A stretch of DNA of 28,514 bases. Origin: a virus. Its lineage: Duplodnaviria; Heunggongvirae; Uroviricota; Caudoviricetes. Below the pieces are notes generated by a model. That model was given only the letters and a program-made list of their open reading frames with translations, did not search any database and had not been told where the DNA came from. This document shows positions 9,507-27,100 of this stretch, one piece after another (position 1 is the first letter of the stretch; every line of letters starts with the position of its first letter). A program made the translations under genes and the position numbers. Location: IMG/VR virus record IMGVR_UViG_2534682329_000006; one strand, given 5' to 3'.

Positions 9507-11273
9507 ATGAACACCACACTGACATCCGCAGATCTCGATCCCCGTCGGCAGGCCATGCTGCTGTACTTTCAGGGATACCGCGTAGCCCGCATTGCTGAAA
9601 TGCTGGGCGAGAAAGTTGCAACCGTTCACAGCTGGAAGAAACGCGACAAGTGGGGTGACTATGGGCCGCTGGATCAGATGCAGCTCACCACCGCCGCACG
9701 TTACTGCCAGCTCATTATGAAGGAGCACAAAGAAGGGAAAGATTTCAAAGAAATTGACCTGCTGGCGCGCCAGTCGGAGCGCCACGCGCGGATCGGCAAG
9801 TTTAACAATGGCGGCAACGAAGCCGACTTAAACCCTAACGTCGCCAACCGCAACAAAGGCCCGCGCCGTCAGCCGGAAAAGAATGTTTTCACCGATGAAC
9901 AGATAGATAAACTGGAAGAAATCTTCCATTCCTCCATGTTCAACTACCAGCGCCACTGGTGGGAAGCCGGAAAAACCAACCGCATCCGCAACCTGCTGAA
10001 GTCACGCCAGATCGGCGCGACCTTTTACTTTGCCCGTGAAGCCCTGATTGACGCCCTGCTTACCGGACGTAACCAGATTTTCCTTTCTGCCAGTAAGGCA
10101 CAGGCTCACGTCTTTAAGCAGTACATCATCGACTTCGCCAAAGAAGTCGAGGTGGAGCTGAAAGGCGATCCGATGGTGCTTCCTAACGGGGCCACGCTTT
10201 ACTTCCTCGGCACCAATGCCCGCACGGCGCAGAGTTACCACGGCAACCTGTATCTGGATGAATATTTCTGGATACCGAAATTCCAGGAGTTGCGCAAAGT
10301 GGCTTCCGGTATGGCTATTCACAAGAAATGGCGACAAACCTATTTTTCCACGCCATCCAGCCTGACCCACAGTGCTTATCCGTTCTGGTCCGGTGCGCTG
10401 TTCAACCGTGGACGCAACAAAGCTGACAAGGTGGACATCGACCTGTCCCACAGCAATCTGGCCCCCGGCCTACTGTGCGCAGACGGGCAATACCGCCAGA
10501 TAGTCACCGTGGAAGATGCGGTGCGCGGCGGCTGTAACCTGTTCGACCTCGACCAGCTGCGCATGGAGTACAGCCCGGACGAATACCAGAACCTGCTGAT
10601 GTGCGAGTTCGTGGACGATCTCGCGTCCGTGTTCCCGCTCAGCGAACTGCAGGCGTGCATGGTGGACAGCTGGGAAGTCTGGACCGACTTTCATGCACTG
10701 GCCCTGCGCCCGTTTGGCTGGCGCGAAGTGTGGATCGGTTATGACCCGGCAAAAGGTACGCAGAACGGCGACAGTGCCGGATGCGTGGTGGTGGCTCCGC
10801 CAGCCGTGCCGGGTGGTAAGTTCCGCATTCTTGAGCGTCACCAGTGGCGCGGGATGGACTTCCGCGCCCAGGCTGACGCCATCAAAAAACTGACCGAACA
10901 GTATAACGTGACCTATATCGGTATCGACTCGACCGGCGTCGGTCACGGGGTTTACGAGAACGTGAAAGCGTTTTTTCCTGCCGTCAGGGAGTTTGTCTAC
11001 AACCCCAACGTTAAAAACGCCCTGGTACTCAAGGCCTACGACATTATCAGCCACCGCCGTCTGGAGTTTGACGCCGGGCACACCGACATTGCGCAGTCAT
11101 TTATGGCAATCCGTCGCGCTACCACTGCCAGTGGCAACCGCCCGACCTATGAAGCAAGCCGCAGCGAAGAAGCCAGCCATGCCGATCTGGCCTGGGCAAC
11201 AATGCACGCACTGTTTAACGAACCGCTGCAGGGCGAGTCCGCCAATACCAGCAATATTGTGGAGATTTTTTGA
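9507..11273 (+). CDS. P: Terminase ATPase/large subunit gpP
   Basis: 588-aa ORF (P2 gpP 590 aa); divergent from O and followed by Q as in P2. Confidence 0.9.
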   Translation: MNTTLTSADLDPRRQAMLLYFQGYRVARIAEMLGEKVATVHSWKKRDKWGDYGPLDQMQLTTAARYCQLIMKEHKEGKDFKEIDLLARQSERHARIGKFNNGGNEADLNPNVANRNKGPRRQPEKNVFTDEQIDKLEEIFHSSMFNYQRHWWEAGKTNRIRNLLKSRQIGATFYFAREALIDALLTGRNQIFLSASKAQAHVFKQYIIDFAKEVEVELKGDPMVLPNGATLYFLGTNARTAQSYHGNLYLDEYFWIPKFQELRKVASGMAIHKKWRQTYFSTPSSLTHSAYPFWSGALFNRGRNKADKVDIDLSHSNLAPGLLCADGQYRQIVTVEDAVRGGCNLFDLDQLRMEYSPDEYQNLLMCEFVDDLASVFPLSELQACMVDSWEVWTDFHALALRPFGWREVWIGYDPAKGTQNGDSAGCVVVAPPAVPGGKFRILERHQWRGMDFRAQADAIKKLTEQYNVTYIGIDSTGVGHGVYENVKAFFPAVREFVYNPNVKNALVLKAYDIISHRRLEFDAGHTDIAQSFMAIRRATTASGNRPTYEASRSEEASHADLAWATMHALFNEPLQGESANTSNIVEIF

Positions 11274-12310
11274 TGGGAAAGAGTAAAAAAAAATGCGCTG
11301 CGGCGACGAACCAGATCCAGCATAAAAGCCAAGCTTCAGCCGAAGCATTCAGCTTCGGTGATCCCATTCCAGTACTTGACCGCCGCGAACTGCTGGACTA
11401 TGTGGAATGCGTACAGACAGATCGCTGGTATGAACCTCCCGTCAGCTTTGACGGACTGGCGCGCACCTTCCGCGCTGCCGTGCATCACAGTTCACCAATT
11501 GCAGTGAAATGCAACATTCTGACCAGCACCTACATCCCTCACCCGCTGCTCAGCCAGCAGGCTTTTTCGCGTTTTGTGCAGGACTATCTGGTTTTTGGTA
11601 ACGCCTACCTGGAGAAACGCACGAACCGCTTCGGTGAAGTTATCGCCCTTGAGCCTGCACTGGCAAAATACACCCGACGCGGGTTAGACCTGGATACCTA
11701 CTGGTTTGTGCAATACGGTATGACAACCCAGCCGTATCAGTTCACGAAAGGCAGCATTTTTCATCTGATGGAACCGGACATTAACCAGGAGATCTACGGC
11801 CTGCCCGGTTATCTTTCTGCCATTCCGTCAGCTCTGCTCAACGAGTCCGCCACGCTGTTCCGCCGCAAGTATTACATTAACGGCAGTCATGCAGGCTTCA
11901 TCATGTACATGACCGATGCTGCGCAGAACCAGGAGGATGTGAACAACCTCCGCAATGCGATGAAAAGCGCCAAAGGTCCTGGTAACTTCCGTAACCTGTT
12001 TATGTACTCGCCTAACGGTAAAAAGGACGGGCTTCAGATTATCCCGTTGTCAGAAGTGGCGGCGAAGGATGAGTTCCTGAATATCAAGAACGTGAGCCGG
12101 GACGACATGATGGCGGCGCATCGTGTGCCGCCACAAATGATGGGGATAATGCCTAATAATGTCGGGGGGTTTGGGGATGTGGAGAAGGCTAGTCGAGTGT
12201 TTGTCCGCAATGAACTGATGCCACTGCAAAAGCGGCTGCAAGAGCTGAACAACTGGCTAGGTGAAAAAGTGATTTGTTTTGAATCTTACAACTTAGATAT
12301 TTCTGAGTAA
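11270..12310 (+). CDS. Q: Portal protein gpQ
   Basis: 346-aa ORF (P2 gpQ 344 aa); start overlaps the P stop; last gene before the cos region. Confidence 0.88.
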   Translation: MMGKSKKKCAAATNQIQHKSQASAEAFSFGDPIPVLDRRELLDYVECVQTDRWYEPPVSFDGLARTFRAAVHHSSPIAVKCNILTSTYIPHPLLSQQAFSRFVQDYLVFGNAYLEKRTNRFGEVIALEPALAKYTRRGLDLDTYWFVQYGMTTQPYQFTKGSIFHLMEPDINQEIYGLPGYLSAIPSALLNESATLFRRKYYINGSHAGFIMYMTDAAQNQEDVNNLRNAMKSAKGPGNFRNLFMYSPNGKKDGLQIIPLSEVAAKDEFLNIKNVSRDDMMAAHRVPPQMMGIMPNNVGGFGDVEKASRVFVRNELMPLQKRLQELNNWLGEKVICFESYNLDISE

Positions 12311-12314
12311 ATTA

Positions 12315-12350
12315 AAGCGCCTGCATTTGCAGGCATTCTATTATTCTTTA
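12315..12350. terminator. Bidirectional rho-independent terminator between convergent Q and the 98-aa ORF
   Basis: Hairpin GCCTGC-ATTT-GCAGGC (12319..12334) flanked by T-rich sequence on both strands, directly after the Q stop codon. Confidence 0.55.
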
Positions 12351-12637
12351 ATTAGTGCCCCCCATACGGAGTCCATATCAACTTCCTCAACTACAATGCA
12401 AATGGAGCAATGAACATGACCATCAGCAATGCGTAGGTAATTGAAAAGCCTTGTTTTCACCCGCCCATCAAATTGAGCACGCCCACCCTTATTCGTAATT
12501 GTTACGTAGTCTCCCACATTTGGAAGCATCAAAAGCGAGTTGTCTTCTGAATTACACCCTACAACCTCTCCATCATCATCAGGGCGATCCTGACCTTTGC
12601 GCATATATTGAAAATCATAGCTATAAGTAGTTTTCAT
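12341..12637 (-). CDS. Hypothetical small protein (98 aa) between Q and cos
   Basis: Open reading frame only; no motif recognised; weak Shine-Dalgarno; AT-rich relative to flanking core genes. Confidence 0.35.
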   Translation of the reverse strand: MKTTYSYDFQYMRKGQDRPDDDGEVVGCNSEDNSLLMLPNVGDYVTITNKGGRAQFDGRVKTRLFNYLRIADGHVHCSICIVVEEVDMDSVWGALIKE

Positions 12638-12842
12638 AAATGTCTTACTATTCCAATTTTTAACTAACCCAGAAGTTATATCTTAGACCTAAACTGTCTC
12701 AGTCACCGTTAACTTCATCACAACGATTTAACACATCCTGCATGCCTATCTAACGTGAGAGCCGTTTATACCTACAAAACTAACTACGTTCCTGAGCCAG
12801 TAAATTGCGGTGGATTTTGACCATTTTACCCCAGAGTGCGCG

Positions 12843-12861
12843 CTCGTATCCCCGCCACGCC
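12843..12861 (-). other. Candidate cos site (cohesive-end sequence)
   Basis: Minus strand reads GGCGTGGCGGGGATACGAG; the first 13 nt fit the P2/186 cohesive-end sequence as I remember it (GGCG[A/T]GGCGGGGA…); lies where cos is expected, between Q and the accessory/A region. Confidence 0.45.
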
Positions 12862-12902
12862 TGCCCGCTTTATGTAGCAGTTTTCATGCGCCTGCATGAC
12901 AT

Positions 12903-12930
12903 AAGCAAAAGCCCGCCATTCCTGGCGGGC
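12903..12930 (-). terminator. Rho-independent terminator of the accessory operon (minus strand)
   Basis: 8-bp GC-rich stem GCCCGCCA/TGGCGGGC with a 4-nt loop (12911..12930), followed on the minus strand by TTTTGCTTAT; about 100 nt downstream of the HIRAN gene stop. Confidence 0.6.
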
Positions 12931-13031
12931 CTCAGCTAAAACGATCATCAAACGATCATGCGGATTTATGCGGCATAGACATGCACTAAATCAAGAGCAC
13001 CTTATTACCGGCAAGCATGAATAAACATGCT

Positions 13032-13736
13032 TCACCGAACGGATACTTTTGCATAAATCAAAGGCCTATCCGAAGAGCCATTTTTACGTACGACCACTCC
13101 ACTGACATCATGGTTTTTACTTAGATCACGTAATGCGGCGCACAATGCCTTGTTGACATATCCGAGATGATTGTCGTTTTTCGTAACCAATATGGCCAGC
13201 GGATCAACCGTATTGGTATCTTCATTCCGCAATATGACTTCATCACCAATTGATATCTCATCAAGCGCTAGACGCCCTTCCTTGATCATGTGCCTCGTTC
13301 CAGCGACCTCCATGACGTAATCGAAAGGTGGCCGAACAGAAGACAAGTCTGGGACAAAATAAAAACCATCACTAGCAACTTTTCCGCCAGTACATGCGAG
13401 CAAAACGAAGTCATTCTCTCTAAAATCAGCAGGAAGACGAAACGTCAGCAAGTAATCGTCAAAATCTTCTCTTTTCCTGGAGGGTAACCTTCTTGAAAAG
13501 GTTTGCATAACGTCTTTGCGATGAGTCGCAACTTTTATATCAAAAGCAGGAAAACCGCGAAAGCCGTTATCCCTAGCTTTAGCAAAATCTTTGCTATCAG
13601 TAAGATAATTAAACTCGTAGCCTTCAGACTCATCTTGAAGAAGCTCACCAACGACATAGCGAGAGCCTCCGTCAACCGGTTGCCATGTCAGTAAGAGCCT
13701 ACTGGGCATGGGAATGTTTTCTATTAAGATAGTCAT
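13032..13736 (-). CDS. HIRAN-domain protein (unknown N-terminal domain plus C-terminal HIRAN-like domain)
   Basis: C-terminal segment (…GDEVILRNEDTNTVDPLAILVTKNDNHLGYVNKALCAALRDL…) fits the HIRAN pattern (L.RE..N..D.NAI.V....LGY…A..L); start overlaps the kinase stop (ATGA coupling). Confidence 0.6.
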   Translation of the reverse strand: MTILIENIPMPSRLLLTWQPVDGGSRYVVGELLQDESEGYEFNYLTDSKDFAKARDNGFRGFPAFDIKVATHRKDVMQTFSRRLPSRKREDFDDYLLTFRLPADFRENDFVLLACTGGKVASDGFYFVPDLSSVRPPFDYVMEVAGTRHMIKEGRLALDEISIGDEVILRNEDTNTVDPLAILVTKNDNHLGYVNKALCAALRDLSKNHDVSGVVVRKNGSSDRPLIYAKVSVR

Positions 13737-14644
13737 GAAGTAACACCTTTAATCAGTTCAATACGCATGTTTGTTACACGAACAATCCATGCAGCACGTT
13801 CTCTAGTCAGCGGAACAGGGCAGTTTATTTCCGTCAACTCCGCAAAAGTTGACTCCCAAAAATCATGGTTCAAAAGAGCCAGTTTTTCAGCTACCCGCTG
13901 TTTTAATGCTTCTTTTTTATCACAAAGTTCTTTGATGAACTCTAAATGACCTAATCTCTGATACTCATCTTTGCCCAGAGTCTTACGCAAATGATGCCTT
14001 CCCCGGCCAACATGCTCCCTGAGTCTATGATCGGTCCAATCGGCAACATGCTCCGGAAAGCGTTCGTAACATAAGCTCGTACCATTATCGAAAAATGGTG
14101 CAAGCTGACACTCGCTGGCTAAAGGTGAAAAGACAAACCCCCAATTTTCTTGATGTCTATCTGTATTACCTATCACAGCGTCAAAGAGAGCCATGTCCTC
14201 CAACCACTCAACATAGTCAACTTTAAGAGCTTTCGCGATAATCCTCAGCCCTTCAAGGGAATGCTGAGCTCCTTTCTCGCGATCAAAATTTGGATCTCTT
14301 CGGACAAAGTAATCACCAGCGGGAGCAAATTTCTCATAATCTTTATGATGAAACCACTCAATGAGGGCCCCGCAAAACGTATGCCCCAAATCATTAGTCT
14401 TTACCGATGGAACTGCTTTGGGGACATCAAAACCAAGCTTCAATCCAATCCTGTAGGCAACGATCTCACACCAAAATTGATCTGGATACTTTTTAATACT
14501 TCTCTTAAAAAGATACGGCCACGATGCTTTGATACCATGGGGTGCTACATCAGGGGAAATAACCAATGCCTTAGAGCGAGCACCAACAGGATATTGTGCG
14601 AAAACATCTAGCTCAGTCCAATTGGTTACATCTAAGCAATCCAT
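13733..14644 (-). CDS. HipA-family serine/threonine kinase, short form (303 aa, lacks the HipA N-terminal subdomain)
   Basis: Catalytic-loop motif FDAVIGNTDRHQENWGF matches the HipA/CtkA signature (…IGNTD.H..N…); about 300 aa versus about 440 for E. coli HipA. Confidence 0.7.
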   Translation of the reverse strand: MDCLDVTNWTELDVFAQYPVGARSKALVISPDVAPHGIKASWPYLFKRSIKKYPDQFWCEIVAYRIGLKLGFDVPKAVPSVKTNDLGHTFCGALIEWFHHKDYEKFAPAGDYFVRRDPNFDREKGAQHSLEGLRIIAKALKVDYVEWLEDMALFDAVIGNTDRHQENWGFVFSPLASECQLAPFFDNGTSLCYERFPEHVADWTDHRLREHVGRGRHHLRKTLGKDEYQRLGHLEFIKELCDKKEALKQRVAEKLALLNHDFWESTFAELTEINCPVPLTRERAAWIVRVTNMRIELIKGVTS

Positions 14645-14659
14645 AGCTAAGTCCTATAT

Positions 14660-15220
14660 TTATTTTTTATTTAAATTCATATAGATATGAGAAACCAGTG
14701 CGATCTGAAATAAAACATCATCGAATGCTGTGTGCCTGATGCCAGTGAACTTTTTGTCAGCATGAGAAAAAATTCCTTTGCTTTCACCAAGCGCTAAGAT
14801 GGTTCTGACGTCAAGAGTATCTCTGAATGACCATGGGCACTCCAGACCTGCCTGTGACAGGGCATGATGCATGATAGTGCAGTCGAACTCTTTCCCGTTT
14901 CCCCACACTTTTACTCGGCCATTACGATTATGAAGAACAAACGCCACAAATTCATTCAGAACGTCTAAAAGGTCCTTAGTGCCACCAAAATTTTCGTTTT
15001 TAGCTTCAGAACTTTGATACATCCACCACTTTACAGTGGAGGGGGCAATGGTTCTGCCTGCTTGTTCATGATCAAGCGAAATAACTTGATAGAAACCCGG
15101 ACCAACCTCGCCAGTCTCCGGCACGAAGAAAGCCGCACCAACCGAAAGGATATAAGCCGTTTTTTCAACATCCAATGTTTCTATATCTAACATTACATGA
15201 TTCATAACAAGCATTTGCAA
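14660..15220 (-). CDS. DEDDh-type (DnaQ-like) 3'-5' exonuclease
   Basis: Exo I motif MLDIETLD near the N-terminus and Exo III motif HTAFDD near the C-terminus; about 185 aa. The track start is TTG; in-frame ATGs follow at 15214, 15205 and 15193. Confidence 0.7.
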   Translation of the reverse strand: MQMLVMNHVMLDIETLDVEKTAYILSVGAAFFVPETGEVGPGFYQVISLDHEQAGRTIAPSTVKWWMYQSSEAKNENFGGTKDLLDVLNEFVAFVLHNRNGRVKVWGNGKEFDCTIMHHALSQAGLECPWSFRDTLDVRTILALGESKGIFSHADKKFTGIRHTAFDDVLFQIALVSHIYMNLNKK

Positions 15221-15361: not shown

Positions 15362-15550
15362 CTAACCAGGAAGATCCATTGAGCGGTTGTATTCATGAGC
15401 GCGAATCTTCGCCATAAGCTCATCGGTCAACTCCGAAACCCACTGGATAGCCAGCCGCTTTTCTTCGTCGTTACACTCACTAGCCGCTACAAGCTTAATA
15501 AAAAAATCAATGCGCTGGAGCTTCAACGACTCCAAAAGATAGTCCTGCAT
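15362..15550 (-). CDS. Small hypothetical protein (about 62 aa) downstream of the LexA box; possible SOS-induced regulator (Tum-like antirepressor is a guess)
   Basis: In-frame ATG at 15550 is preceded by a strong Shine-Dalgarno (GGAGGG); the longer track ORF (to 15667) would run through the LexA box and promoter. No sequence motif recognised. Confidence 0.4.
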   Translation of the reverse strand: MQDYLLESLKLQRIDFFIKLVAASECNDEEKRLAIQWVSELTDELMAKIRAHEYNRSMDLPG

Positions 15551-15599
15551 CTTCCCTCCTATCACGACCACGGACACACGATAGCTGTATGCATGCATA

Positions 15600-15615
15600 C
15601 TGTATATATATACAG
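15600..15615. promoter_or_regulatory. LexA operator (SOS box)
   Basis: CTGTATATATATACAG is a perfect match to the LexA consensus CTGT-N8-ACAG with an ideal AT-rich spacer; lies about 50 nt upstream of the small ORF and inside a promoter-like AT-rich region (TTGACG on the minus strand upstream). Confidence 0.75.
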
Positions 15616-15712
15616 TACACCCCTGGTATTCAAATGTAAAATATTTTTTATCCGTCAATGAGAACACTCTGGCGCAGAGTCGTTAAGAGCATGAATTGTT
15701 AAAGCCTTGCTG

Positions 15713-18106
15713 TCAGTACCACTGCCGCCATTTGTCATCTTCCTGCAGCCGGTGTTTGCGGTAAAAAATACGCAGCCCGGCACCTGACGGAATGCTGCCG
15801 CCACGTAAAAGTAGATCCACTTCAGCATCGCTTGCATTAAATCCCCGGGAGCTGAGTTCTGCCTCAAGCTGCAGGCGCTGTTGCTCCGAAATACTCTGTA
15901 TGTATGCTTTTTTCCGCTTCGGTTTTACCAGTCTCAACCTGGCTGTCAGCTCCCGGCGTTCCTTCTGGCCCATATTGTGTAGGTAATCCTGCAGTTCCTG
16001 CTCATTCATGGTTTTAATATCGGGCAGCTCCCCCCCTGTCTGGTTCAAATTTTCAACAGGGGGACAGTTATTGCCACGAGTCCAAGGGGCGCAAGCGCCC
16101 TGGTCGGCTGCCGCCTCCTGAACGTCAACGGCTTTACGAACCATTTTCCACTTCACTGCATGAGTGCAGATCTTGCCCTCTGCAATGGGTGACCAGATGC
16201 CATAAATACGAATGCCGTGATCGCCATAGGCGGTCGGCTCTTCGTTGATTTCATAAGCGGTTCTGATGAGGTGATATTTACGGGGTACCAGTACGCCGCC
16301 CTGCTTCATGATGTAGGTGGCAAAACAACCAGCATCAGCAGCAGCCAGAATGGCATCAAGACGCGGGTTATCCAGTACCGGCGCACCTGCTTTTTTGTCA
16401 CCCTGTTGCCTTGCCGCCTGACCAGCCAGCAAGCGAAGTTCACGGTAAGCCTGACGCCCCGGAATACCAAAGAAGCGGAATTGCTGAACACGATGCAGAG
16501 ACGCCCAGGCATTCACGTATTCAGCGTTATCACGCAGAGATTTACCCGTTTCCTTGCTGATCTCGCCAGCCAGACCACGACCGTCAATGTTCTTACTGAT
16601 ATATTTCGCGATGTAGCTTGTCGGCGTTCCTTTGCGCGGGTTAATCAACTCAGACTTAAAGCGCGGCCCAGTGTTATTGCCCAGCTCCTCGCGGTCTTCA
16701 CGGATGGCAAACTTACGCAGTAATGCAGTGATGGCACGGCGGTCTTTTTTGCGCATGAAACACAACAGGTGCCAGTGAACTGTGCCATCATGATGCGGCT
16801 CAGCCACCCGCACGCCATACCAGCGCAACCCGGCTTTGTGCATCGCCTTACGAAATGCAGCAAACATGCCGACCAGATAATCGCTGCTTTGTCTTACCGT
16901 CGCGTTTGTCCAGGTCGGGTTTGGTCTGCCGTTATTTAGCGTGGAATGGAAACGCGACGGACAGGTGATAGTGTAGAAAACGGCGCAGTCACCGCGCATT
17001 TCCGCGATAAGCTCCAGACCTTTAACACAGGCCATCATCTCATTGCGGCGATGCGCAGGGTTGCTGCTGCTGGCGTTTACCACATCCTCCATGTCCAGCG
17101 TGTCGCCGTCTTCGTTCACCAGTTCATGAGAACGGAAAAACTCCAGCGACTTACGGCGCTGCTCACGTTTATGCATCACGGCTTCATAGCTGACATAAGG
17201 AGATGCTTTTTTGCTGACCAGGCAAACAGCGCGCAACTGCTCTTCCCGCCATTCGCAACGCATCTTCCATAATTTCCGATACCACCAGTCGGCGCACAAC
17301 ATACGCGCCAGCGAACCCGGAATGAGTTCATAGGGCACGGGTTTACGGCGGTTTCTTTTCCGACGGAGTTGCTCAAACGCAGGTGGGATGACATCCAGAC
17401 GCAGGGTTTCCGCTGCCACCTTTTCCCATGTCTTGCGGATTTCTTCTGGCTTAACGTCATCGGTGGCATACAAATCACCACAAGCTGCATCAAGGCACAT
17501 ACTCATATGCGCAGCTACCAGGGTGGACAGGCGTTTCACCTGATCCTGACTCATTTCAGGCAGGATCAGCAGGCCGTCCAGCCCTTCATGGCTTGCCATA
17601 AAGCGAAAAGATGCAGATAGCTGACTGTCGCGTACATGCTCCAGTCGTTCCAGACATGGCTTAATCGTCTCACGTAAATAGCGGGAATAAGCCTTTGGCC
17701 TGCCCAGGCTGCTGAAGTATTTAATACGTTGCATCAGCGGCTTGCTGATATGGGAAGGCTGAGCGTTGACATCCGCCAGAATGACCATGTCCGGATTAAA
17801 ACGCTGCTGCTCATGCGCCAGCTTTGCCCGGCTAATTAGCTTATCCTGCTCCATTTCGCGCTGGACAGGATCACGGGATTCATTAAAGAAATAACGCTCC
17901 CAGACCTGATCACTCAGTGCCTCGCGGCGCAGTTGTTCCTGCTCGTTATCGGCAGCGTACAGAGTGATCAGGTTTGAAAGCGCAGAAACCGGCGCAACTT
18001 CCGCCGGGTCCAGATAAGGGTTAATGGCCTTTTTCGGGCTGTTCCATGAGAATGCTGCGGCAGCCTCGTTAAAGCCGCAGCAGTTGTTCATATCGGCATG
18101 ACTCAT
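15713..18106 (-). CDS. A: Replication initiation protein gpA (rolling-circle HUH endonuclease)
   Basis: 797-aa ORF (P2 gpA 761 aa) with the HUH motif (…[10 protein letters not shown]…); start overlaps the dam stop. Confidence 0.88.
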
Positions 18107-18960
18107 GCACGTACTCCGTACACGGCAGAACTGTCCACGCCACGCGAATAATCAAATCCCACCCAGCAGCGCGGCCCGGAAACAGCAATGATTTCTGTTG
18201 CTGATTTACCCTCGCCAGCTGCCACACCGATGCTGCGTTTTGCCTTGATGTAGTGGTGAGTAAAATTGCGATACAGCGAACGGATCAGGGATGTGTCACT
18301 GTTAGAAACAATGACCGGATGTCCTTCTGATGACCGATGTTCAAGAACAGATGCCAGGTGATACTGGTCATCTTCAGTGAAGCCGTCAGTGTGATAGCCG
18401 GAAAACGTACCGTCATACGGCGGATCGCAATACACCACATCCCCCGCCTTCAACATCGCCAGCGTTTCATCAAAGCTGGCGCAGATAAACGTTGCTCGCT
18501 GGGCCTTTTCTGCAAATGCGCGAATTTCTTTTTCAGGGAAATACGGATTTTTATAATTACCGTAGGGAATGTTGAAATGCCCGCTCTTGTTATAGCGACA
18601 TAAACCACGGTAACCGTGACGATTGAGATACAGGAAATATACCGCTTTCATGAAATCAGTAATTTCAGTGGAGTAATTAAACTCCTGCCTTATGTTGTAA
18701 TAAGCCACCTCCCTGTTTGCTTCCTCAAATAAAGCTCTGGCACGAGATATAAACGCCTCACAATCAGCAGCAACCTTTTTATAGAGGTTGATTAAATCAG
18801 GATTAATATCCGCAACAAGATAGCTGGGGTAATCCGTCTCCATCATCACTGCACAGGAACCCGCGAAAGGTTCAACCAGTCGCGGGCCAGCAGGAAGATG
18901 CTTTTTCAGTTCGGACATTATGGCGGTTTTATTTCCCGCCCATTTCAGGATGGTGCTCAT
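18103..18960 (-). CDS. dam: DNA adenine methyltransferase (Dam-like N6-adenine MTase)
   Basis: Motif I (EPFAGSCAV) and motif IV (DPPY); likely start at the internal Met ([11 protein letters not shown]…) overlapping the upstream zinc-finger ORF stop; the track ORF extends to 19020. Confidence 0.8.
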
Positions 18961-19184
18961 ACAGCACCTCCGTTGTAATGTTTGCCTTTCAGCTCTGCGA
19001 TTTCCTGACAGGTAATGCAAAGCTGCACACCCGGAATGGCACGGCGGCGTGCTGGCGGAATTGGCGCTTCACACTCAACGCAAAGCACGCGGGACACGCC
19101 CGGCGTTTTGGCACGGGCAGCACGGATATGGCGCTGGCGTTCTTCTTCAACGCGCTGCTGTACGAGATCCATTGCATCAGCCAT
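18957..19184 (-). CDS. TraR/DksA-type C4 zinc-finger protein
   Basis: CVEC…17 aa…CITC four-cysteine motif in a 75-aa protein; position equivalent to the small zinc-finger ORF upstream of A in P2-like phages. Confidence 0.65.
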   Translation of the reverse strand: MADAMDLVQQRVEEERQRHIRAARAKTPGVSRVLCVECEAPIPPARRRAIPGVQLCITCQEIAELKGKHYNGGAV

Positions 19185-21785: not shown

Positions 21786-22802
21786 ATGACCATCAGAAAA
21801 CAGCCGAACGGAAAATGGTTGTGTGAGTGCTATCCCAATGGACGCAATGGTAAGCGCGTGCGTAAGCAATTTGCTACGAAAGGCGAAGCCATTGCTTTTG
21901 AAAGCTTCACAATGGAAGAAGTGAATAAAAAACCGTGGTTGGGTGAAAAGGATGATCGGCGACGCCTATCAGAATTAATTGAGCTTTGGTATTCCCTGTA
22001 TGGTCAGACACTCGCAGACCCCAAGCGCCTCATGGCGAAACTTAGAATTATCTGTAATGGTCTAGGCGACCCCATCGCCTCAGAACTGACAGCCGGTGAC
22101 TTTACGAAATACCGCGAAGCACGGTTAAAAGGTGACGTTCGTAACGAAGACGGCACACTAATGTCGCCAGTAAAACCACGCACGGTGAATCTTGAGCAAC
22201 GTAACCTATCATCGGTTTTCGGCACATTGAAAAAACTAGGCCACTGGTCAGCACCAAATCCTCTCGCCGGGCTGCCAACATTTAAAATCGCTGAGGGGGA
22301 ACTGGCGTTCCTGACCTCGGAAGAAATTAAACGTCTGCTAGATGCCTGCGCTGATTCTCAAAACCCCAGTCTGCTTTTGATTGCAAAAATATGCCTGGCC
22401 ACCGGCGCACGCTGGAGTGAAGCCGAAAACCTGCAGGGCCATCAGTTATCTAAATACCGCATCACTTATACCAAGACGAAGGGTAAGAAAAACCGCACCG
22501 TGCCGATATCTCAAGATCTGTATGACGAACTCCCCAAGAACAGAGGGAAGCTATTCACCCCGTGCAGAAAAGCCTTTGAACGAGCAGTAAAGCGAGCTGG
22601 CATCGAGCTGCCAGAGGGCCAATGCACTCACGTGCTACGTCATACATTCGCCAGCCATTTTATGATGAATGGCGGAAACATACTGGTGCTACGCGATATT
22701 CTGGGCCATGCCGATATAAAAATGACGATGATCTATTCTCATTTTTCACCAGAACACTTAGAAGATGCAGTAACTAAGAATCCTTTAAATTATATTGAGT
22801 GA
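21786..22802 (+). CDS. int: Tyrosine integrase (P2-type site-specific recombinase)
   Basis: 338-aa protein with the catalytic H-x-x-R box (HVLRHTFASH) and C-terminal tyrosine region (IKMTMIYSHF); last core phage gene before att. Confidence 0.88.
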   Translation: MTIRKQPNGKWLCECYPNGRNGKRVRKQFATKGEAIAFESFTMEEVNKKPWLGEKDDRRRLSELIELWYSLYGQTLADPKRLMAKLRIICNGLGDPIASELTAGDFTKYREARLKGDVRNEDGTLMSPVKPRTVNLEQRNLSSVFGTLKKLGHWSAPNPLAGLPTFKIAEGELAFLTSEEIKRLLDACADSQNPSLLLIAKICLATGARWSEAENLQGHQLSKYRITYTKTKGKKNRTVPISQDLYDELPKNRGKLFTPCRKAFERAVKRAGIELPEGQCTHVLRHTFASHFMMNGGNILVLRDILGHADIKMTMIYSHFSPEHLEDAVTKNPLNYIE

Positions 22803-23869
22803 AAATCATGTTAAGTGATACTTGTTATACAGTGATTTATATTACAGCAATCGTTTTATTAGTATTTATTACAATAGTAAAAAAATGGTACATACTTGAT
22901 AAAAGAAATTTATTTCGTCAGAAATTATTTTGGATTTCAGTTTTAACACCTTTATTTTCCTTTATCTATTTTGTTTTTTTCACATGGTGGGGAAAAGAAC
23001 CAGTACTCTCCGCACATGGCTATTCAAGATTTTACGAAATAAGCAAATTCCCTCTACTATTGCTAGCTAGTGCAGTTCCTTTGGCTTCGATCGTCAACAA
23101 TATACATCGCACTATACAAACCGAAGCTCAGATCAACACCGCTGAAACGAAAAATGCAGTCGATAGATATTTAGCACATGAGAAAAACTTTATTGAGAAA
23201 ACAAAGGAAATATTCGCCTACAATCTTCAAAGCGCGAGAGGCTCAGATGGAAACCTCATTAAATTCAATGGCGAACCAAATATCACTTTGTTTACAGCAG
23301 ATGAAATTAAAATTTCCAACCCATATCTTTTATATACAAAAATATACAACAAATCAACTATAGAGACCACATCTAACTTCACCGCAAACCCTGATTTTTT
23401 AGTGCAATTAAAGGAGTACTTAAACACAATTAATAATACTCTGTCGGTTCAACACTCTATAGATGAATATAATCCATTAAGTTACATGATTCGACTTAAC
23501 ACTTTGTCATATAATACAGCCTCGTTATTAGACCTGATATGTACATCCCCCATATCTCATGTATACTGTTTGATAAAATATGATGGGTATCAATTAAAAA
23601 CATTTACACTTGAAGAACAAGTATTCGCCGATATTTTAGAAATATCATATCTTCTATCAAGAAAACTAATTCGTTTGATATATAATGAAGATATACCACA
23701 TTACGACAACATTTATAATTACTTATATGTTGGTAAGTTGAGGTTTAAATTCAGAAAACACGCCTATTCTTTACAAGCATTTTCTTCGCAGGAATGGGCT
23801 GATTACGTTTCTGAAGCACTAACTCTAGTTCCTAACGAAGTTGGCGGCACTTTGGCGGCAGCGCATTAA
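22799..23869 (+). CDS. Hypothetical membrane protein, AT-rich cargo gene between int and att
   Basis: About 355-aa ORF with two N-terminal TM helices then an N/Y/I/K-rich domain with no recognised motif; visibly AT-rich; start (GTG at 22799 or ATG at 22808) overlaps or abuts the int stop. Confidence 0.55.
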   Translation: MKIMLSDTCYTVIYITAIVLLVFITIVKKWYILDKRNLFRQKLFWISVLTPLFSFIYFVFFTWWGKEPVLSAHGYSRFYEISKFPLLLLASAVPLASIVNNIHRTIQTEAQINTAETKNAVDRYLAHEKNFIEKTKEIFAYNLQSARGSDGNLIKFNGEPNITLFTADEIKISNPYLLYTKIYNKSTIETTSNFTANPDFLVQLKEYLNTINNTLSVQHSIDEYNPLSYMIRLNTLSYNTASLLDLICTSPISHVYCLIKYDGYQLKTFTLEEQVFADILEISYLLSRKLIRLIYNEDIPHYDNIYNYLYVGKLRFKFRKHAYSLQAFSSQEWADYVSEALTLVPNEVGGTLAAAH

Positions 23870-24155: not shown

Positions 24156-27100
24156 TCAGAACGACCAGTTCACACCAGCTACCGCGTTCCACGGGGATTC
24201 CACACCGGCACTATGGCTATACCCCACCCCAAGATGCCCGCTTAACGTACTGCTGAATGAGGCTTTAATACCTGCCTGGTATATTCCACGTCTGCCCGAC
24301 AAATAATTGACGAAATTACCGTCACTATTCACTTTCACCCGGTTATCATCGACAAATTCTTTGCGCACAGCCGGCTCAACTTCCATACCGTTCCCCAGAC
24401 GCATGTTGTAACTCAGCGTTGCGCCCAGTTCACGATATATACTGCGGGTATCGACTGATTTCGATTTCATGCCATTGGATAAATGATATTCGGGGTTATC
24501 AGCGGTGAACCCCGTTAACGATGCATACGGCGTCAGGTTCCAGTTACCATCGGTAAATCGCATCCCGGTTTCAATGTGACCGCCCAGCCCGTTGCTGTGG
24601 TAACTGCCATTGGCGGCTCCACCGCTGCTCATTTTACCTGCTACGTTACTTTTAAAACGGTTCAGCTTCACGACACCGTCCAGATAGAAACCACTTTCAT
24701 GTTCCCAACTGGCATAGCCGCCCAGAGAATAACTGCCCACACTGCCATGTCCTCCGCGATCAAAACCGATATGTGAATGGGAATAGCCCATAAAAGCGCC
24801 TAGCGTGGTAATTCCTTCAGGAATATCATTACGGCTGTCGATCCCCACTGTCATTCCGGTCAGCGTCTGCTCAAACCCGGCACCCGCATCGGTGGTGACA
24901 TTATTACGGGTGTTATACGTCGCCCCCCAGACATTATTGTTGTGTGGACTCGCTTTCATTATGTTCAACCGCTCGCGAATACTGTTTAGCTCAGCATCAA
25001 ATACCAACGGTAATGTTGCTGCCATATTGAGTACGGCTGCCGTAGAAGGCGTAATGCGTTTCTCCGGAACGGGTGTCGGCGTTGGATCGGGAGTAGGGTC
25101 TGGTTTTGGATTTGGGTCTGGCTTTGGATCGGGTTTTGGGTCTGGCTTTGGATTTGGGATGGGGTCCGGGTTGGGTTTGACATCATTGGTCAGGTTCCAG
25201 TTGCTGTTGCCGTCACTTTTCAGGACATACTCATAGGTCCCAAGATCAACGAAACCGCCGGTATTGCCCAGCGTAAACGAAGCATCCCCTCCCCCTGTTT
25301 TCACCAGCGTCATCGCGTCGTCAGACTGTGGGCTGACGCCGGTATCCTGAACAAAGATTTTAAAATTACCAGTGGCGTTGTTGTTGACGACCAGTTGATC
25401 GCCCCGGGAGCCTGCAACGTTGGTATGCAGGTAGAAATTACCGCTACCGGAAAGTTCATTGGTTGTCAGCGTATTGTAGATACCGTTAGTTGTGGCAGGC
25501 GCTGCTGTTTGTGCTGACAAATAAACATCACCGTCGTTGAGTAGCAAACTGTTTACTCTATATTCGCAGTTGCTGGTACCTGCACAGGAATTATTGCTGT
25601 TAAGCCAGACACTGCCCCGGCTGGCAGCCGTCAGGTCGGCAAGCGTGGTATCGACGCCATTTCCCAGAGTCAATGTCGCGCTATCGGTAATCCGGACCGC
25701 CCCTTCGAGTTTAACTGGCGTAACATTATCCCGTGGCGTCATTAACGACAGGCTTCCTGTCGCGCCACTGACCGATGCATCCGCCAGCGTACCTGCGTAG
25801 ACGATTGCCGTACCGCCAGCGACCTGGAGATCTTCTGCCCGGGCCAGAGCCTGAAACTCATCTTTTGACCGCCCAAGGGTATATTGCCCGCCAGAGTTAA
25901 CCTTTGTGGCGGAGTCCTGACCCAGGTTTTGCATTGCCCCACCCTTGCCAACCGTGGAGTCGCGAGCTTCGGTACCTGCTAATACCAATAAATTACCGCC
26001 ATTTTCCAGCAACATATTGGTCGCTAAATTGCCGGAAATGGAAAAAGTACCGTACTGGTGAGTACCGCTGATTTCAATACCGTTAGCCGTGCTCGTCTGG
26101 AGAGCGGCACCGCTGTTCTGGACGATATCTGTCGCTTTGCCATTATCGTTGACTGTCAGCGTACCGCCTTCATTGATCTTTGTTTTTATTGCCTCTCCGT
26201 TAGCTGAAACTGTTTGTATTCCGCCGTCGTTAATTGTTGTCTCATTCGCCACACCCTCGACAATTTGTTCACCGCCGGTGAGCGTCGTGCCTGTCGCAGT
26301 GGCTTTTGTTTTGACGATCTCCCGTCCGCCCATATTGACCTGTGTTTTGTCAGAAGAGGTGTCTGACTCCACGGTTAACACGCCGCCATTTGCCAGCAGG
26401 ATATTGTTCGCCGCACCCTGCTCGATGCTGAACGCGACGCCATCCGCGCGTGTTCCTGTGACCCGCGTCGCCCTGGTGGTTGCAACCAAAGCGCCCTGGC
26501 TACTCTGCTGTATCCCCGTTGCGCTGCCTTTCTCCCGCACATCGAGTGTGCCGCCGTCATTAAGCACCGAGTTTTCAGCCAGACCGCCCTCATTAACTAC
26601 CTGTGAACCCCCATTAATAATGGAATCTTCCGCTGTCCCGTTTGCCATAATTTGTTGTAGGCCAGAGACGATATCGGTATTGATCGCCTTACCATAATTC
26701 TGAACGGTTTGCGTGCCACCATTGATGTGTGTTTTATCTGTTGACCCACCATCAACAATTTGTTCACCACTTTCGATATTTGCCTCAGTGGCTAAACCAT
26801 ATACCGTTTGCTTGCCACCTTTGATATTTGCTTTATCAGAAGTGGCACTGGCATATATTGTTTGGGTGCCAGAACTATTAAGTACAGTGCCAACATCTTT
26901 TCCATAAACATCCATTTTGCCGTTGGCATTAATAATCGTATCAACTGCCCGGGAACCAGTGACGACTGTTAATGAGCCAGCGTTTTCCAGCACTACATTT
27001 TTAGCTTCTGAATTCCTGATGTAGAAAGCATCACCATAACTGTTGGTTCCTTCGATAAGTGTTCCGGAAGTCGTGGAAGCAATTAATGCGCCGCCGGATT

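What the first reader, a model, noticed from the sequence alone, without database searches (positions are those of the whole stretch)
13733..14644. The HipA-like kinase is a truncated, HipT-like form with no cognate HipB-type antitoxin nearby
Seen in sequence: the kinase is about 300 aa, missing roughly the N-terminal third of canonical HipA, and no small HTH antitoxin gene (HipB-like) is adjacent. Instead it is translationally coupled to the HIRAN protein, whose N-terminal ~110 aa have no recognisable motif. Established knowledge: in HipBST systems the HipA N-terminal domain is encoded separately (HipS) and acts as the antitoxin; I recall, without being sure of the details, that bioinformatic surveys of HipA homologues have reported families associated with HIRAN domains. 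Inference: the N-terminal part of the HIRAN protein or the exonuclease may act as the neutralising partner.
Basis: partly seen in the sequence, partly recalled or inferred. Interest (0 to 1): 0.6.

Follow-up and report, generated by a model that had tools for sequence, protein, structure and literature searches.

The report
Phage-borne short HipA kinase with HipS-HIRAN partner
A prophage carries a short HipA-type protein kinase whose missing front domain is encoded in the next gene, fused to a DNA-end-binding HIRAN domain; this gene pair is already catalogued as a toxin-antitoxin and candidate anti-phage module but has never been tested.

Summary
A 303-aa HipA_C kinase (13733-14644, minus strand) lacks about 130 N-terminal residues of HipA. 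An in-frame stop four codons upstream rules out a longer form. It overlaps by ATGA a 234-aa gene with a C-terminal HIRAN domain, and no HTH gene is adjacent.

This is the hipIN module described by Gerdes et al. 2021, listed in PADLOC as candidate PDC-M03. The pair is adjacent in 77 of 80 related loci; the other three are cut by contig ends. In many Enterobacterales the two genes are fused into one ~550-aa protein.

The cassette is a low-GC island between gpA and the portal gene of a P2-like prophage, a known defence hotspot.

The upstream 3'-5' exonuclease (DEDDh, best solved match an 'Exodeoxyribonuclease') occurs in only 6 of 82 sources. It is therefore an accessory gene, not the neutraliser.

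Kinase neutralisation, DNA-end sensing and abortive infection are all inferred. I found no experimental paper on this module.

Verdict: new member of a known, untested kind; moderate interest.

The parts
13733..14644 (-). Short HipA-superfamily Ser/Thr kinase (HipI-type, PADLOC PDC-M03A), 303 aa, with no N-subdomain-1
   Evidence: ORF. Pfam HipA_C 6.3e-10. PDC-M03A 1.6e-34. Best solved sequence match is CtkA 3akj at 4.6e-7 across the catalytic loop. Invariant G21, R23, K25, K47, D162, H164, N167, D186 in 33 homologues. In-frame TAG four codons upstream of the start.
13332..13736 (-). HipS-like domain (aa 1 to about 135) of the HipN-type protein; proposed kinase-binding and regulatory domain
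13032..13331 (-). HIRAN domain (aa about 136-234, plus stop codon) of the HipN-type protein
13733..13736 (-). ATGA overlap of the kinase stop codon and the HipN start codon (geometry of translational coupling)
   Evidence: Read directly from the sequence. In most of the 80 related loci the two ORFs abut or overlap, although the mechanically called starts make exact spacings uncertain. In three loci the two genes are fused in frame.
14660..15220 (-). DEDDh 3'-5' exonuclease (Rv2179c-like). The ORF can start as far up as TTG 15220; the likely start is ATG 15205, as in the RefSeq homologue. Accessory first gene of the cassette.
   Evidence: Pfam PF16473 8.5e-51. phrog_255 'exonuclease' 1.5e-60. 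Profile against PDB: 8kel/8ken 'Exodeoxyribonuclease' 1.4e-20, then DnaQ and Orn. H163 is invariant; D12, E14, D113 and D168 are at least 90% conserved. Fifteen nt separate its stop from the kinase ATG. Directly upstream of the kinase only in the window, L001 and L010-L013.
12903..12930 (-). Probable intrinsic terminator that closes the cassette: GCCCGCC-AGGAAT-GGCGGGC followed by TTTTGCTT
   Evidence: Sequence. RNA fold of 12895-13040 gives -54.5 kcal/mol, z -4.28, with this hairpin in both the MFE and centroid structures. The simple scan did not list it.
15713..18106 (-). P2-type replication endonuclease gpA; one border of the variable hotspot
   Evidence: Pfam Phage_GPA 2.3e-128. The same gene borders the cassette in L001, phage 899 and Klebsiella prophages.
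11270..12310 (+). Portal protein; the other border of the hotspot
   Evidence: Pfam Phage_portal 2e-18. Annotated as portal in L001. GC falls from about 55% in the backbone to about 43% across 12.3-15.5 kb.

Best explanation
What it is. This is a hipIN-type kinase module (PADLOC candidate PDC-M03) carried as horizontally acquired cargo in the gpA-portal variable hotspot of a P2-like prophage. It is preceded in the same operon by an accessory 3'-5' exonuclease.

Shown here:
1. The kinase has an intact HipA-type active site but lacks HipA N-subdomain-1.
2. The next gene encodes that missing subdomain, with a HipS-like fold, fused to a HIRAN domain.
3. The two genes are inseparable across Proteobacteria and are repeatedly found fused into one polypeptide.

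Inferred mechanism. The HipS-like domain docks on the kinase and holds it inactive, as HipS does to HipT. Split and covalently fused versions coexist in the same clade and in the same phage hotspot. Control therefore cannot depend on selective degradation of a labile antitoxin and must be conformational. The likeliest trigger is binding of free 3'-OH DNA ends or short single-stranded DNA to the HIRAN domain during infection by another phage, as Gerdes et al. proposed. That would release the kinase to phosphorylate an essential host protein (for HipA and HipT, an aminoacyl-tRNA synthetase). Translation would stop and the infection would abort, protecting the lysogen population.

Role of the exonuclease. 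It is not the neutraliser. Most likely it trims or removes 3' ends or oligonucleotides and so tunes the signal. That last step is speculative.
For: Identity:
- Pfam HipA_C and HIRAN; PADLOC PDC-M03A at 1.6e-34 and PDC-M03B at 5.8e-37.
- The architecture matches the published hipIN description.

Obligate pairing:
- 76 of 80 genome loci have a complete HipN gene directly downstream of the kinase, and one more has a partial gene cut by the contig end.
- The remaining three end at the kinase.

Fusions:
- L010, L011 and L013 are fused in frame.
- About 35 fused clusters of 534-555 aa come from Proteus, Yersinia, Klebsiella, Pantoea, Serratia, Aeromonas and others.
- PHROG 26212 is a 547-position profile of the fused form.
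- The fused model has pTM 0.89, which indicates a defined arrangement of its three domains. Its Gly-rich loop is the only segment of three or more residues with pLDDT below 50.
- The kinase core matches CtkA, HipT and HipA; the middle domain matches HipS; the C-terminus matches HIRAN.

Defence context:
- The cassette is a 43% GC island in a 55% GC P2-like backbone, between gpA and the portal gene.
- That interval is a described hotspot of antiviral systems (PMC9122126).
- The adjacent slot of the same interval holds an Old-like ATP-dependent nuclease, a PIN_12 protein or a DUF4145 protein in relatives.
- 19 of 80 related loci have type I R-M hsdS or hsdM-like methylase genes within 5 kb, often directly abutting the pair. 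MmeI-type, type ISP and SNF2 genes also occur.

Other:
- HIRAN DNA-end-binding motifs are conserved.
- No conserved HTH partner appears in relatives.
Against: - No experiment on hipIN, HipL or PDC-M03 was found. Toxicity, neutralisation, DNA binding and defence are all untested.
- Sequence-level similarity of the HipN N-domain to HipA is marginal: hhalign E 0.057 over 22 residues, and no PDB sequence match. The homology rests on a predicted structure.
- The kinase-HipS interface could not be inspected. No complex prediction was possible, and the tools return no coordinates or PAE.
- The window's own kinase was not modelled; a 43%-identical fused relative was.
- The kinase family has no conserved Ser/Thr at the positions of HipA S150 or HipT S57/S59 (F/Y and V/Q instead). 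Regulation may therefore differ from the HipA and HipT paradigms.
- The kinase substrate is unknown.
- No promoter was found for the cassette.
Confidence: 0.6

Rival explanations
1. It is a plain addiction or stabilisation toxin-antitoxin module with no anti-phage role. The kinase is the toxin and HipN the antitoxin. The pair merely stabilises the prophage or island that carries it, and the HIRAN domain serves as the DNA-binding autoregulator in place of HipB.
For: - The hip family was first defined as TA modules, and Gerdes et al. classify hipIN as a putative TA.
- No HipB or HTH gene is present, so some other domain would have to autoregulate; HIRAN binds DNA.
- The ATGA overlap is typical of TA pairs.
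Against: - Natural in-frame fusions of kinase and HipN are hard to reconcile with a labile-antitoxin addiction mechanism.
- From what I know of HLTF, HIRAN domains recognise 3' DNA ends rather than operator sequences.
- The module sits in a phage defence hotspot and inside R-M operons, which is the signature of defence genes.
- TA and defence roles are not mutually exclusive.
Confidence: 0.15
2. The HipS-like domain is not an inhibitor but an obligatory structural complement that completes a HipA-like enzyme. The HIRAN domain then recruits the active kinase to DNA ends, so that it phosphorylates DNA-bound proteins such as replication or recombination proteins of an invading or resident phage, rather than a translation factor.
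For: - In HipA the N-subdomain is an integral part of the enzyme.
- Fused forms are common, and the fused model is compact with pTM 0.89.
- The kinase family lacks the autophosphorylation serines of HipA and HipT.
Against: - In the one characterised split system, HipBST, the separate HipS domain is the antitoxin (established knowledge; cited).
- Nothing here distinguishes activation from inhibition.
Confidence: 0.15
3. The exonuclease is an unrelated neighbouring phage gene, an independent accessory nuclease that happens to sit next to the kinase pair. It is not a functional component of the system.
For: - 74 of the 80 related loci lack it.
- An Aeromonas fused gene at another prophage site has none.
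- PADLOC's PDC-M03 has only two genes, and the exonuclease matches no PADLOC model.
- The family is very large (10,327 cluster representatives).
- It is common in lambdoid, Vibrio and jumbo phages that have no kinase: 179 phage records against 3.
Against: - Where present it is always immediately upstream on the same strand, 3-17 nt from the kinase, in both split and fused forms and across Escherichia, Klebsiella, Serratia, Atlantibacter and Shewanella.
- This exonuclease allele occurs in 6 of 5,426 E. coli genomes. Five of them hold the full cassette; in the sixth the record start cuts the match inside the kinase gene, and no kinase or HIRAN feature is annotated under it.
- A different DEDD family (NrnC-like diDNases) lies next to HipA plus HIRAN genes in about a third of 93 Gram-positive genomes (PMC11706625). 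That looks like an independent recruitment of the same activity.
Confidence: 0.3
4. The exonuclease is the kinase's antitoxin or neutralising partner.
For: It is adjacent, co-oriented and apparently co-transcribed.
Against: - It is absent from the great majority of loci that encode an equally intact kinase.
- It has conserved DEDDh catalytic residues, so it looks like an active enzyme rather than a binding protein.
- The HipS-like domain provides a far better candidate.
Confidence: 0.03

Closest known systems
hipIN modules (HipI kinase plus HipN), Gerdes, Baerentsen and Brodersen 2021, mBio (PMC8262856)
   Same: - A short kinase of about 280-320 aa that lacks N-subdomain-1, so the Gly-rich loop lies near the N-terminus.
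[quoted passage not shown]
- No HipB.
- A proteobacterial subclade exists.
All of these were seen here.
   Different: - Here the pair is preceded by a DEDDh exonuclease and sits in a P2-like prophage hotspot.
[quoted passage not shown] In this subfamily only 4 of 33 have Ser at position 24, and none has Ser or Thr at the HipA S150 or HipT S57/S59 positions.
- Placement in their tree was not tested.
HipL kinases (kinase, HipS-like and HIRAN domains in one protein), same paper
   Same: Same three domains in the same order. Fused relatives, 43% identical to the window's kinase, occupy the same gpA-portal hotspot with the same upstream exonuclease.
   Different: The window's version is split into two genes with an ATGA overlap. 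A rough NJ tree puts split and fused forms in one gammaproteobacterial clade (no support values).
HipBST (E. coli O127, Legionella)
   Different: - No HipB gene.
- The HipS-like domain is fused to HIRAN.
- It is encoded after the kinase rather than before it.
- The autophosphorylation serines of HipT are absent.
- Gerdes et al. place it in a different phylogenetic clade (XI rather than III).
Canonical HipBA (E. coli K-12)
   Same: Same kinase superfamily and the same catalytic motifs.
   Different: HipA is 440 aa with the N-subdomain in cis and is neutralised by the HTH protein HipB. Neither feature is present here.
PADLOC-DB candidate system PDC-M03
   Same: Both proteins match its A and B models nearly end to end.
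   Different: PDC-M03 is a computational candidate with no described mechanism, and it has no third (exonuclease) gene.
diDNase-HipA-HIRAN gene clusters of Actinomycetes and Clostridia (PMC11706625)
   Same: A small DEDD-superfamily 3'-5' nuclease directly beside a HipA-domain gene and a HIRAN-domain gene.
   Different: Those nucleases are NrnC-like DEDDy enzymes specific for DNA dinucleotides. The one here is DEDDh and Rv2179c-like. The association therefore seems to have arisen independently.
CtkA (JHP0940) of Helicobacter pylori
   Different: CtkA is described as a stand-alone secreted pro-inflammatory kinase. No HipS-HIRAN partner is known to me.

Membership tests
HipA-superfamily kinase | Pfam HipA_C match above the gathering score | tested here: met
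   39.5 bits against a cut-off of 30.5, E 6.3e-10, aa 21-208.
HipA-superfamily kinase | Core motifs: Gly-rich loop with Lys, ATP-binding Lys, catalytic D-x-H-x-x-N, Mg-binding Asp | tested here: met
   G21-A-R-S-K25, K47, D162-R-H-Q-E-N167 and D186-N-G are invariant in 33 homologues. The catalytic loop aligns with CtkA, with Shewanella HipA and with E. coli HipA 298-333.
HipA-superfamily kinase | HipA/HipT-like kinase fold | tested here: inconclusive
HipA-superfamily kinase | Ser/Thr kinase activity and growth arrest on expression | not testable with these tools
   Needs an experiment.
hipIN module (Gerdes 2021) | Short kinase lacking N-subdomain-1 | tested here: met
   303 aa. GARSK at residues 21-25 against HipA GAQEK at 153-157. 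Upstream in-frame stop. Listed homologues are mostly about 300-330 aa.
hipIN module (Gerdes 2021) | [quoted passage not shown] | tested here: met
hipIN module (Gerdes 2021) | The same downstream protein carries a C-terminal HIRAN domain | tested here: met
   Pfam HIRAN 6.9e-8. Profile and fold matches to HLTF, lp_0118 and Rad5 HIRAN.
hipIN module (Gerdes 2021) | [quoted passage not shown] | not tested
   No reference HipI sequences from the paper's Table S1 were available to place it.
hipIN module (Gerdes 2021) | HipN neutralises the kinase | not testable with these tools
   Only indirect support: invariant adjacency and natural fusions.
HipBST | Tricistronic operon with an HTH HipB | tested here: not met
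   No HTH gene in the island. No conserved HTH gene next to relatives.
HipBST | Free-standing HipS of about 100 aa encoded upstream of the kinase | tested here: not met
   The HipS-like domain is fused to HIRAN and encoded downstream of the kinase.
PADLOC PDC-M03 | Adjacent genes matching both the PDC-M03A and PDC-M03B models | tested here: met
   1.6e-34 (residues 1-298 on profile 1-272 of 280) and 5.8e-37 (residues 11-225 on profile 5-218 of 250).
Anti-phage defence system | Located in defence islands or hotspots | tested here: met
   P2 gpA-portal hotspot. R-M neighbours in 19 of 80 loci.
Anti-phage defence system | Reduces phage plating or burst | not testable with these tools
   No experimental report found.
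DEDDh 3'-5' exonuclease (Rv2179c-like) | Family match plus the DEDD and His catalytic residues | tested here: met
   PF16473 8.5e-51. H163 invariant, and D12, E14, D113 and D168 at least 90% conserved. Profile match to 8kel 'Exodeoxyribonuclease' at 1.4e-20.

The most novel reading that the evidence does not exclude
The cassette is a three-part nucleic-acid-sensing switch rather than a toxin-antitoxin pair. HipN's HIRAN domain would sense free 3'-OH DNA ends or short DNA oligonucleotides made during phage attack, and would allosterically release the kinase from the HipS-like domain. The small 3'-5' exonuclease would clear such ends or oligonucleotides in uninfected cells, setting the activation threshold and preventing autoimmunity.

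Two unrelated DEDD nuclease families are found next to kinase-HipS-HIRAN modules: the DEDDh Rv2179c-like family in enterobacterial P2-like phages, and NrnC-like DEDDy dinucleotide DNases in Gram-positive bacteria. Under this reading that is convergent evidence that short 3'-OH DNA is the signal. The coexistence of split and fused forms would show that control is conformational, not proteolytic.
Probability: 0.2. Interest if true: 0.75.

Novelty: new member of a known kind. Interest (0 to 1): 0.4.

Why it matters
hipIN and HipL modules are widespread. They are catalogued as toxin-antitoxin and defence candidates, yet I found no experimental paper on them.

This copy is a compact 2.2-kb, three-gene cassette. 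It is native to an Escherichia-type P2-like prophage and sits in a hotspot where other cargo has been shown to block phages. That makes it a convenient model for three open questions:
- How does a HIRAN domain, a eukaryotic replication-fork 3'-end reader, control a bacterial kinase?
- Does a HipS-like domain inhibit the kinase without proteolysis?
- Why do small 3'-5' exonucleases keep turning up next to these kinases?

As it stands, the finding mostly re-identifies a published architecture.

Tried and rejected
1. Longer kinase under another start codon: rejected, because an in-frame TAG lies four codons upstream.
2. HipB-like gene nearby: none in the island. Small upstream ORFs in relatives were read by eye and one was Pfam-scanned; they show no HTH and are not conserved (DUF3037, an HsdS fragment, others).
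3. Sequence-level link of the HipN N-domain to HipS or HipA: phmmer and a profile against PDB found nothing. hhalign against E. coli HipA gave only E 0.057 over 22 residues. Only fold comparison worked.
This was solved by retrieving fused proteins with a third protein search.
5. The kinase-HipS interface could not be examined, because the tools return no coordinates, no PAE and no multimer prediction.
6. Exonuclease against PDB by single sequence gave only a spurious immunoglobulin match. A profile was needed.
7. The exonuclease as one of the published diDNases: rejected. Those are NrnC-like DEDDy enzymes; this one is DEDDh.
8. [quoted passage not shown] No supplement text is held to check.
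9. Literature searches for HipN/HipI/HipL, PDC-M03 and HIRAN with anti-phage gave no experimental work. Several hits were the surname 'Hirano' or hip surgery papers.
10. A sigma-70 promoter upstream of the exonuclease: none was found by the consensus scan.
11. Escherichia phage vB_EcoM-720R4 was checked as a possible P2-like phage with a lone exonuclease. Its neighbouring genes (YfdP, YfdQ, EaE) do not look P2-like to me, so it was uninformative.
12. Look-up of the closest non-E. coli kinase (Yersinia ruckeri, P0063) found no contig on record.
Full report
**1. What is in the sequence**

Three co-oriented genes lie on the minus strand:
- a 186-aa ORF at 14660-15220;
- a 303-aa ORF at 13733-14644;
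- a 234-aa ORF at 13032-13736.

The first and second are separated by 15 nt. The second and third overlap as ATGA. A strong GC-rich hairpin followed by TTTTGCTT lies about 100 nt after the third gene, at 12903-12930.

The three genes form a roughly 43% GC island in a roughly 55% GC backbone. The backbone is a P2-like prophage:
- capsid scaffold, terminase (9507-11273) and portal (11270-12310) on one side;
- replication endonuclease gpA (15713-18106), a Dam-type methylase, and further away a CI-type repressor homologue (by synteny with L001) and an integrase-like ORF on the other side.

The gpA-portal interval of P2-like phages is a published hotspot of antiviral cargo (PMC9122126).

**2. Check of the observation**

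The kinase matches Pfam HipA_C above threshold. It has every core motif: G21-A-R-S-K25, K47, D162-R-H-Q-E-N167 and D186-N-G.

- Its catalytic loop aligns with HipA 298-333.
- By eye, its Gly-rich loop corresponds to HipA 153-157.
- So about 130 N-terminal residues of HipA have no counterpart.
- A TAG four codons upstream of the ATG excludes a longer reading.

The downstream protein has a HIRAN domain at aa 140-220 and no Pfam match before it. No HTH gene is in the island.

This is not a truncated copy. Almost all of the 120 best homologues listed are about 300-330 aa.

**3. The HIRAN protein's N-terminal domain**

Thirty-four homologues show that residues 1 to about 135 are the better-conserved half of the protein. 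An AlphaFold2 model built on that alignment is confident (pLDDT 94.9, pTM 0.90).

| Comparison | C-terminal half | N-terminal half |
|---|---|---|
| Foldseek against PDB | HLTF HIRAN, E 2e-5 | Legionella HipS 8ezr_A, E 0.02, target TM 0.72 |

At sequence level the link is only marginal (hhalign E 0.057). However, some fused relatives carry a precomputed PF13657 match, which I know as Couple_hipA.

So the missing N-subdomain of the kinase is encoded in the next gene, fused to HIRAN. This is exactly the hipIN architecture of Gerdes et al. 2021. Both proteins also match PADLOC's candidate system PDC-M03 nearly end to end.

**4. How tight the pair is**

A scan of one genome per species returned 80 loci with kinase relatives at 34-47% identity, nearly all Proteobacteria.

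- In 76 loci a HipN gene follows the kinase directly, usually overlapping or abutting it.
- In one more locus it runs off the contig end.
- The other three contigs end at the kinase.
- The neighbours are otherwise heterogeneous, so the two-gene pair is the conserved unit.
- No HTH partner is conserved.

In L010, L011 (Serratia) and L013 (Atlantibacter) the two genes are one in-frame ORF of about 550 aa, with the HipN methionine retained at the junction. A protein search with that fusion found about 35 fused clusters of 534-555 aa in Proteus, Yersinia, Kluyvera, Klebsiella, Pantoea, Pectobacterium, Raoultella, Serratia, Arsenophonus and Aeromonas. PHROG 26212 is a profile of this fused form. 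This is the HipL architecture.

- the C-terminus matches HIRAN.

A rough NJ tree places the window's kinase on a long branch beside a gammaproteobacterial clade that contains both split and fused forms (no support values, so treat with caution).

**5. Defence context**

The same cassette, in split or fused form, occupies the gpA-portal interval in:
- E. coli N1420 and four other E. coli genomes;
- Escherichia phage 899 and Yersinia phage GMG73;
- Klebsiella prophages.

The slot next to it holds an Old-like ATP-dependent nuclease, a PIN_12 protein or a DUF4145 protein in those relatives. The window has a 98-aa ORF there.

In Betaproteobacteria the pair often sits directly after hsdS or hsdM-like methylase genes. 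It also occurs next to MmeI-type, type ISP or SNF2 genes, and 19 of 80 loci have hsdS or hsdM-like genes within 5 kb. An Aeromonas fused gene lies between the repressor and the integrase of another P2-like prophage.

All of this is the genomic signature of an anti-phage gene. I found no experimental paper.

**6. The exonuclease**

It is a DEDDh enzyme:
- Pfam Rv2179c-like, 8.5e-51;
- H163 invariant, with D12, E14, D113 and D168 at least 90% conserved;
- best solved relative a 227-aa 'Exodeoxyribonuclease' (8kel, 1.4e-20), which I believe is T4 DexA, followed by DnaQ and Orn.

The family is very large and common in phages that have no kinase. Next to the kinase it occurs only in the window, L001 and L010-L013, that is 6 of 82 sources, plus the phage and Klebsiella copies. 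It cannot be the general neutraliser.

Where present, however, it is always immediately upstream, 3-17 nt away. This allele is found in 6 of 5,426 E. coli genomes. Five of those hold the full cassette; in the sixth the record start cuts the match inside the kinase gene.

Independently, a 2025 study found NrnC-like DEDDy 'diDNases' next to HipA plus HIRAN genes in about a third of 93 Gram-positive genomes (PMC11706625). Two unrelated DEDD families beside the same module suggest a functional link. This is an inference.

**7. Likely mechanism**

Shown:
- an intact kinase active site;
- the missing subdomain supplied by the partner gene;
- obligate adjacency and repeated fusion;
- conserved HIRAN end-binding motifs (N175, D178, A181, R148, Y193);
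- a defence-type location.

Inferred:
- The HipS-like domain binds and silences the kinase, as HipS silences HipT.
- Because covalent fusions work in the same niche, release must be conformational rather than by antitoxin degradation.
- HIRAN binding to 3'-OH DNA ends or short ssDNA during infection is the probable trigger, as Gerdes et al. suggested.
- The kinase then blocks an essential host process and aborts the infection.

This kinase family lacks Ser or Thr at the positions of HipA S150 and HipT S57/S59. Autophosphorylation control as in those systems is therefore unlikely.

The exonuclease may tune the pool of 3' ends. That is the most speculative step.

**8. Verdict**

- Its main inference, that the HIRAN protein's N-terminus is a HipS-like partner, is supported by fold evidence and by the literature it half-remembered.
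- Its alternative, the exonuclease as neutraliser, is not supported.
- The module is a new member of a known but experimentally untouched kind.
- The exonuclease linkage and the split/fused interchange within one phage hotspot are the parts that go beyond what I found published.

Noticed in passing
window 12341-12637 (- strand): A 98-aa ORF lies between the portal gene and the kinase cassette. It matches phrog_12676 (unknown function, 4.8e-52) and has no Pfam or PADLOC match. In relatives the same slot holds an Old-like ATP-dependent nuclease (E. coli N1420), a PIN_12 protein or a DUF4145 protein (Klebsiella). It may be a second, independent hotspot cargo gene.
   Followed up: partly
window 12838-12988: A stretch of about 150 bp downstream of the cassette is 90% identical in many Klebsiella, Escherichia and Salmonella P2-like phages, where nothing is annotated under it. 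It contains the strong terminator-like hairpin at 12903-12930. It may be a conserved boundary or terminator element of the hotspot.
   Followed up: partly
window 22799-23869 (+ strand): A 356-aa ORF in a 35% GC stretch starts at a GTG that overlaps the end of the integrase gene. It has a hydrophobic N-terminus, no PADLOC match and only a sub-threshold DUF3810 match. It looks like unexplained cargo at the prophage end.
   Followed up: partly
window 24156-27914 (- strand): A 1252-aa AIDA/pertactin-type autotransporter adhesin lies just outside the prophage (AIDA repeats 5e-126, autotransporter beta-domain 3e-41).
   Followed up: partly
window 18103-19020 (- strand): A Dam-like orphan adenine methyltransferase inside the prophage replication module (PADLOC orphan MTase 8e-112) is translationally coupled to gpA. 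It could protect phage DNA from restriction.
   Followed up: no
window 15362-15667 (- strand): A small conserved P2-backbone ORF lies between gpA and the cassette (phrog_698, unknown function). RefSeq annotates only a 56-aa version in E. coli N1420. The cassette's promoter should lie in the 140 nt after it, but no sigma-70 consensus was found there.
   Followed up: partly
L014, L023, L024, L033, L035, L052, L055, L056 (genes ending just before the kinase); L024:6634-7608, L025:3984-4958, L056:3408-4355: In many betaproteobacterial genomes the kinase-HipN pair is inserted inside type I R-M operons, directly after hsdS. It is often accompanied by a DUF5655 protein with a weak NucS-like nuclease match.
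   Followed up: partly
L005:4571-5002: In a Rheinheimera MAG a DUF3037 protein (1.6e-20) overlaps the start of the kinase gene. This may be another accessory partner in some lineages.
   Followed up: no
L086:6001-7617: In an Aeromonas salmonicida P2-like prophage the fused kinase-HipS-HIRAN gene sits between the CI-type repressor and the integrase, with no exonuclease. The module therefore uses at least two different cargo slots of P2-like phages.
   Followed up: partly
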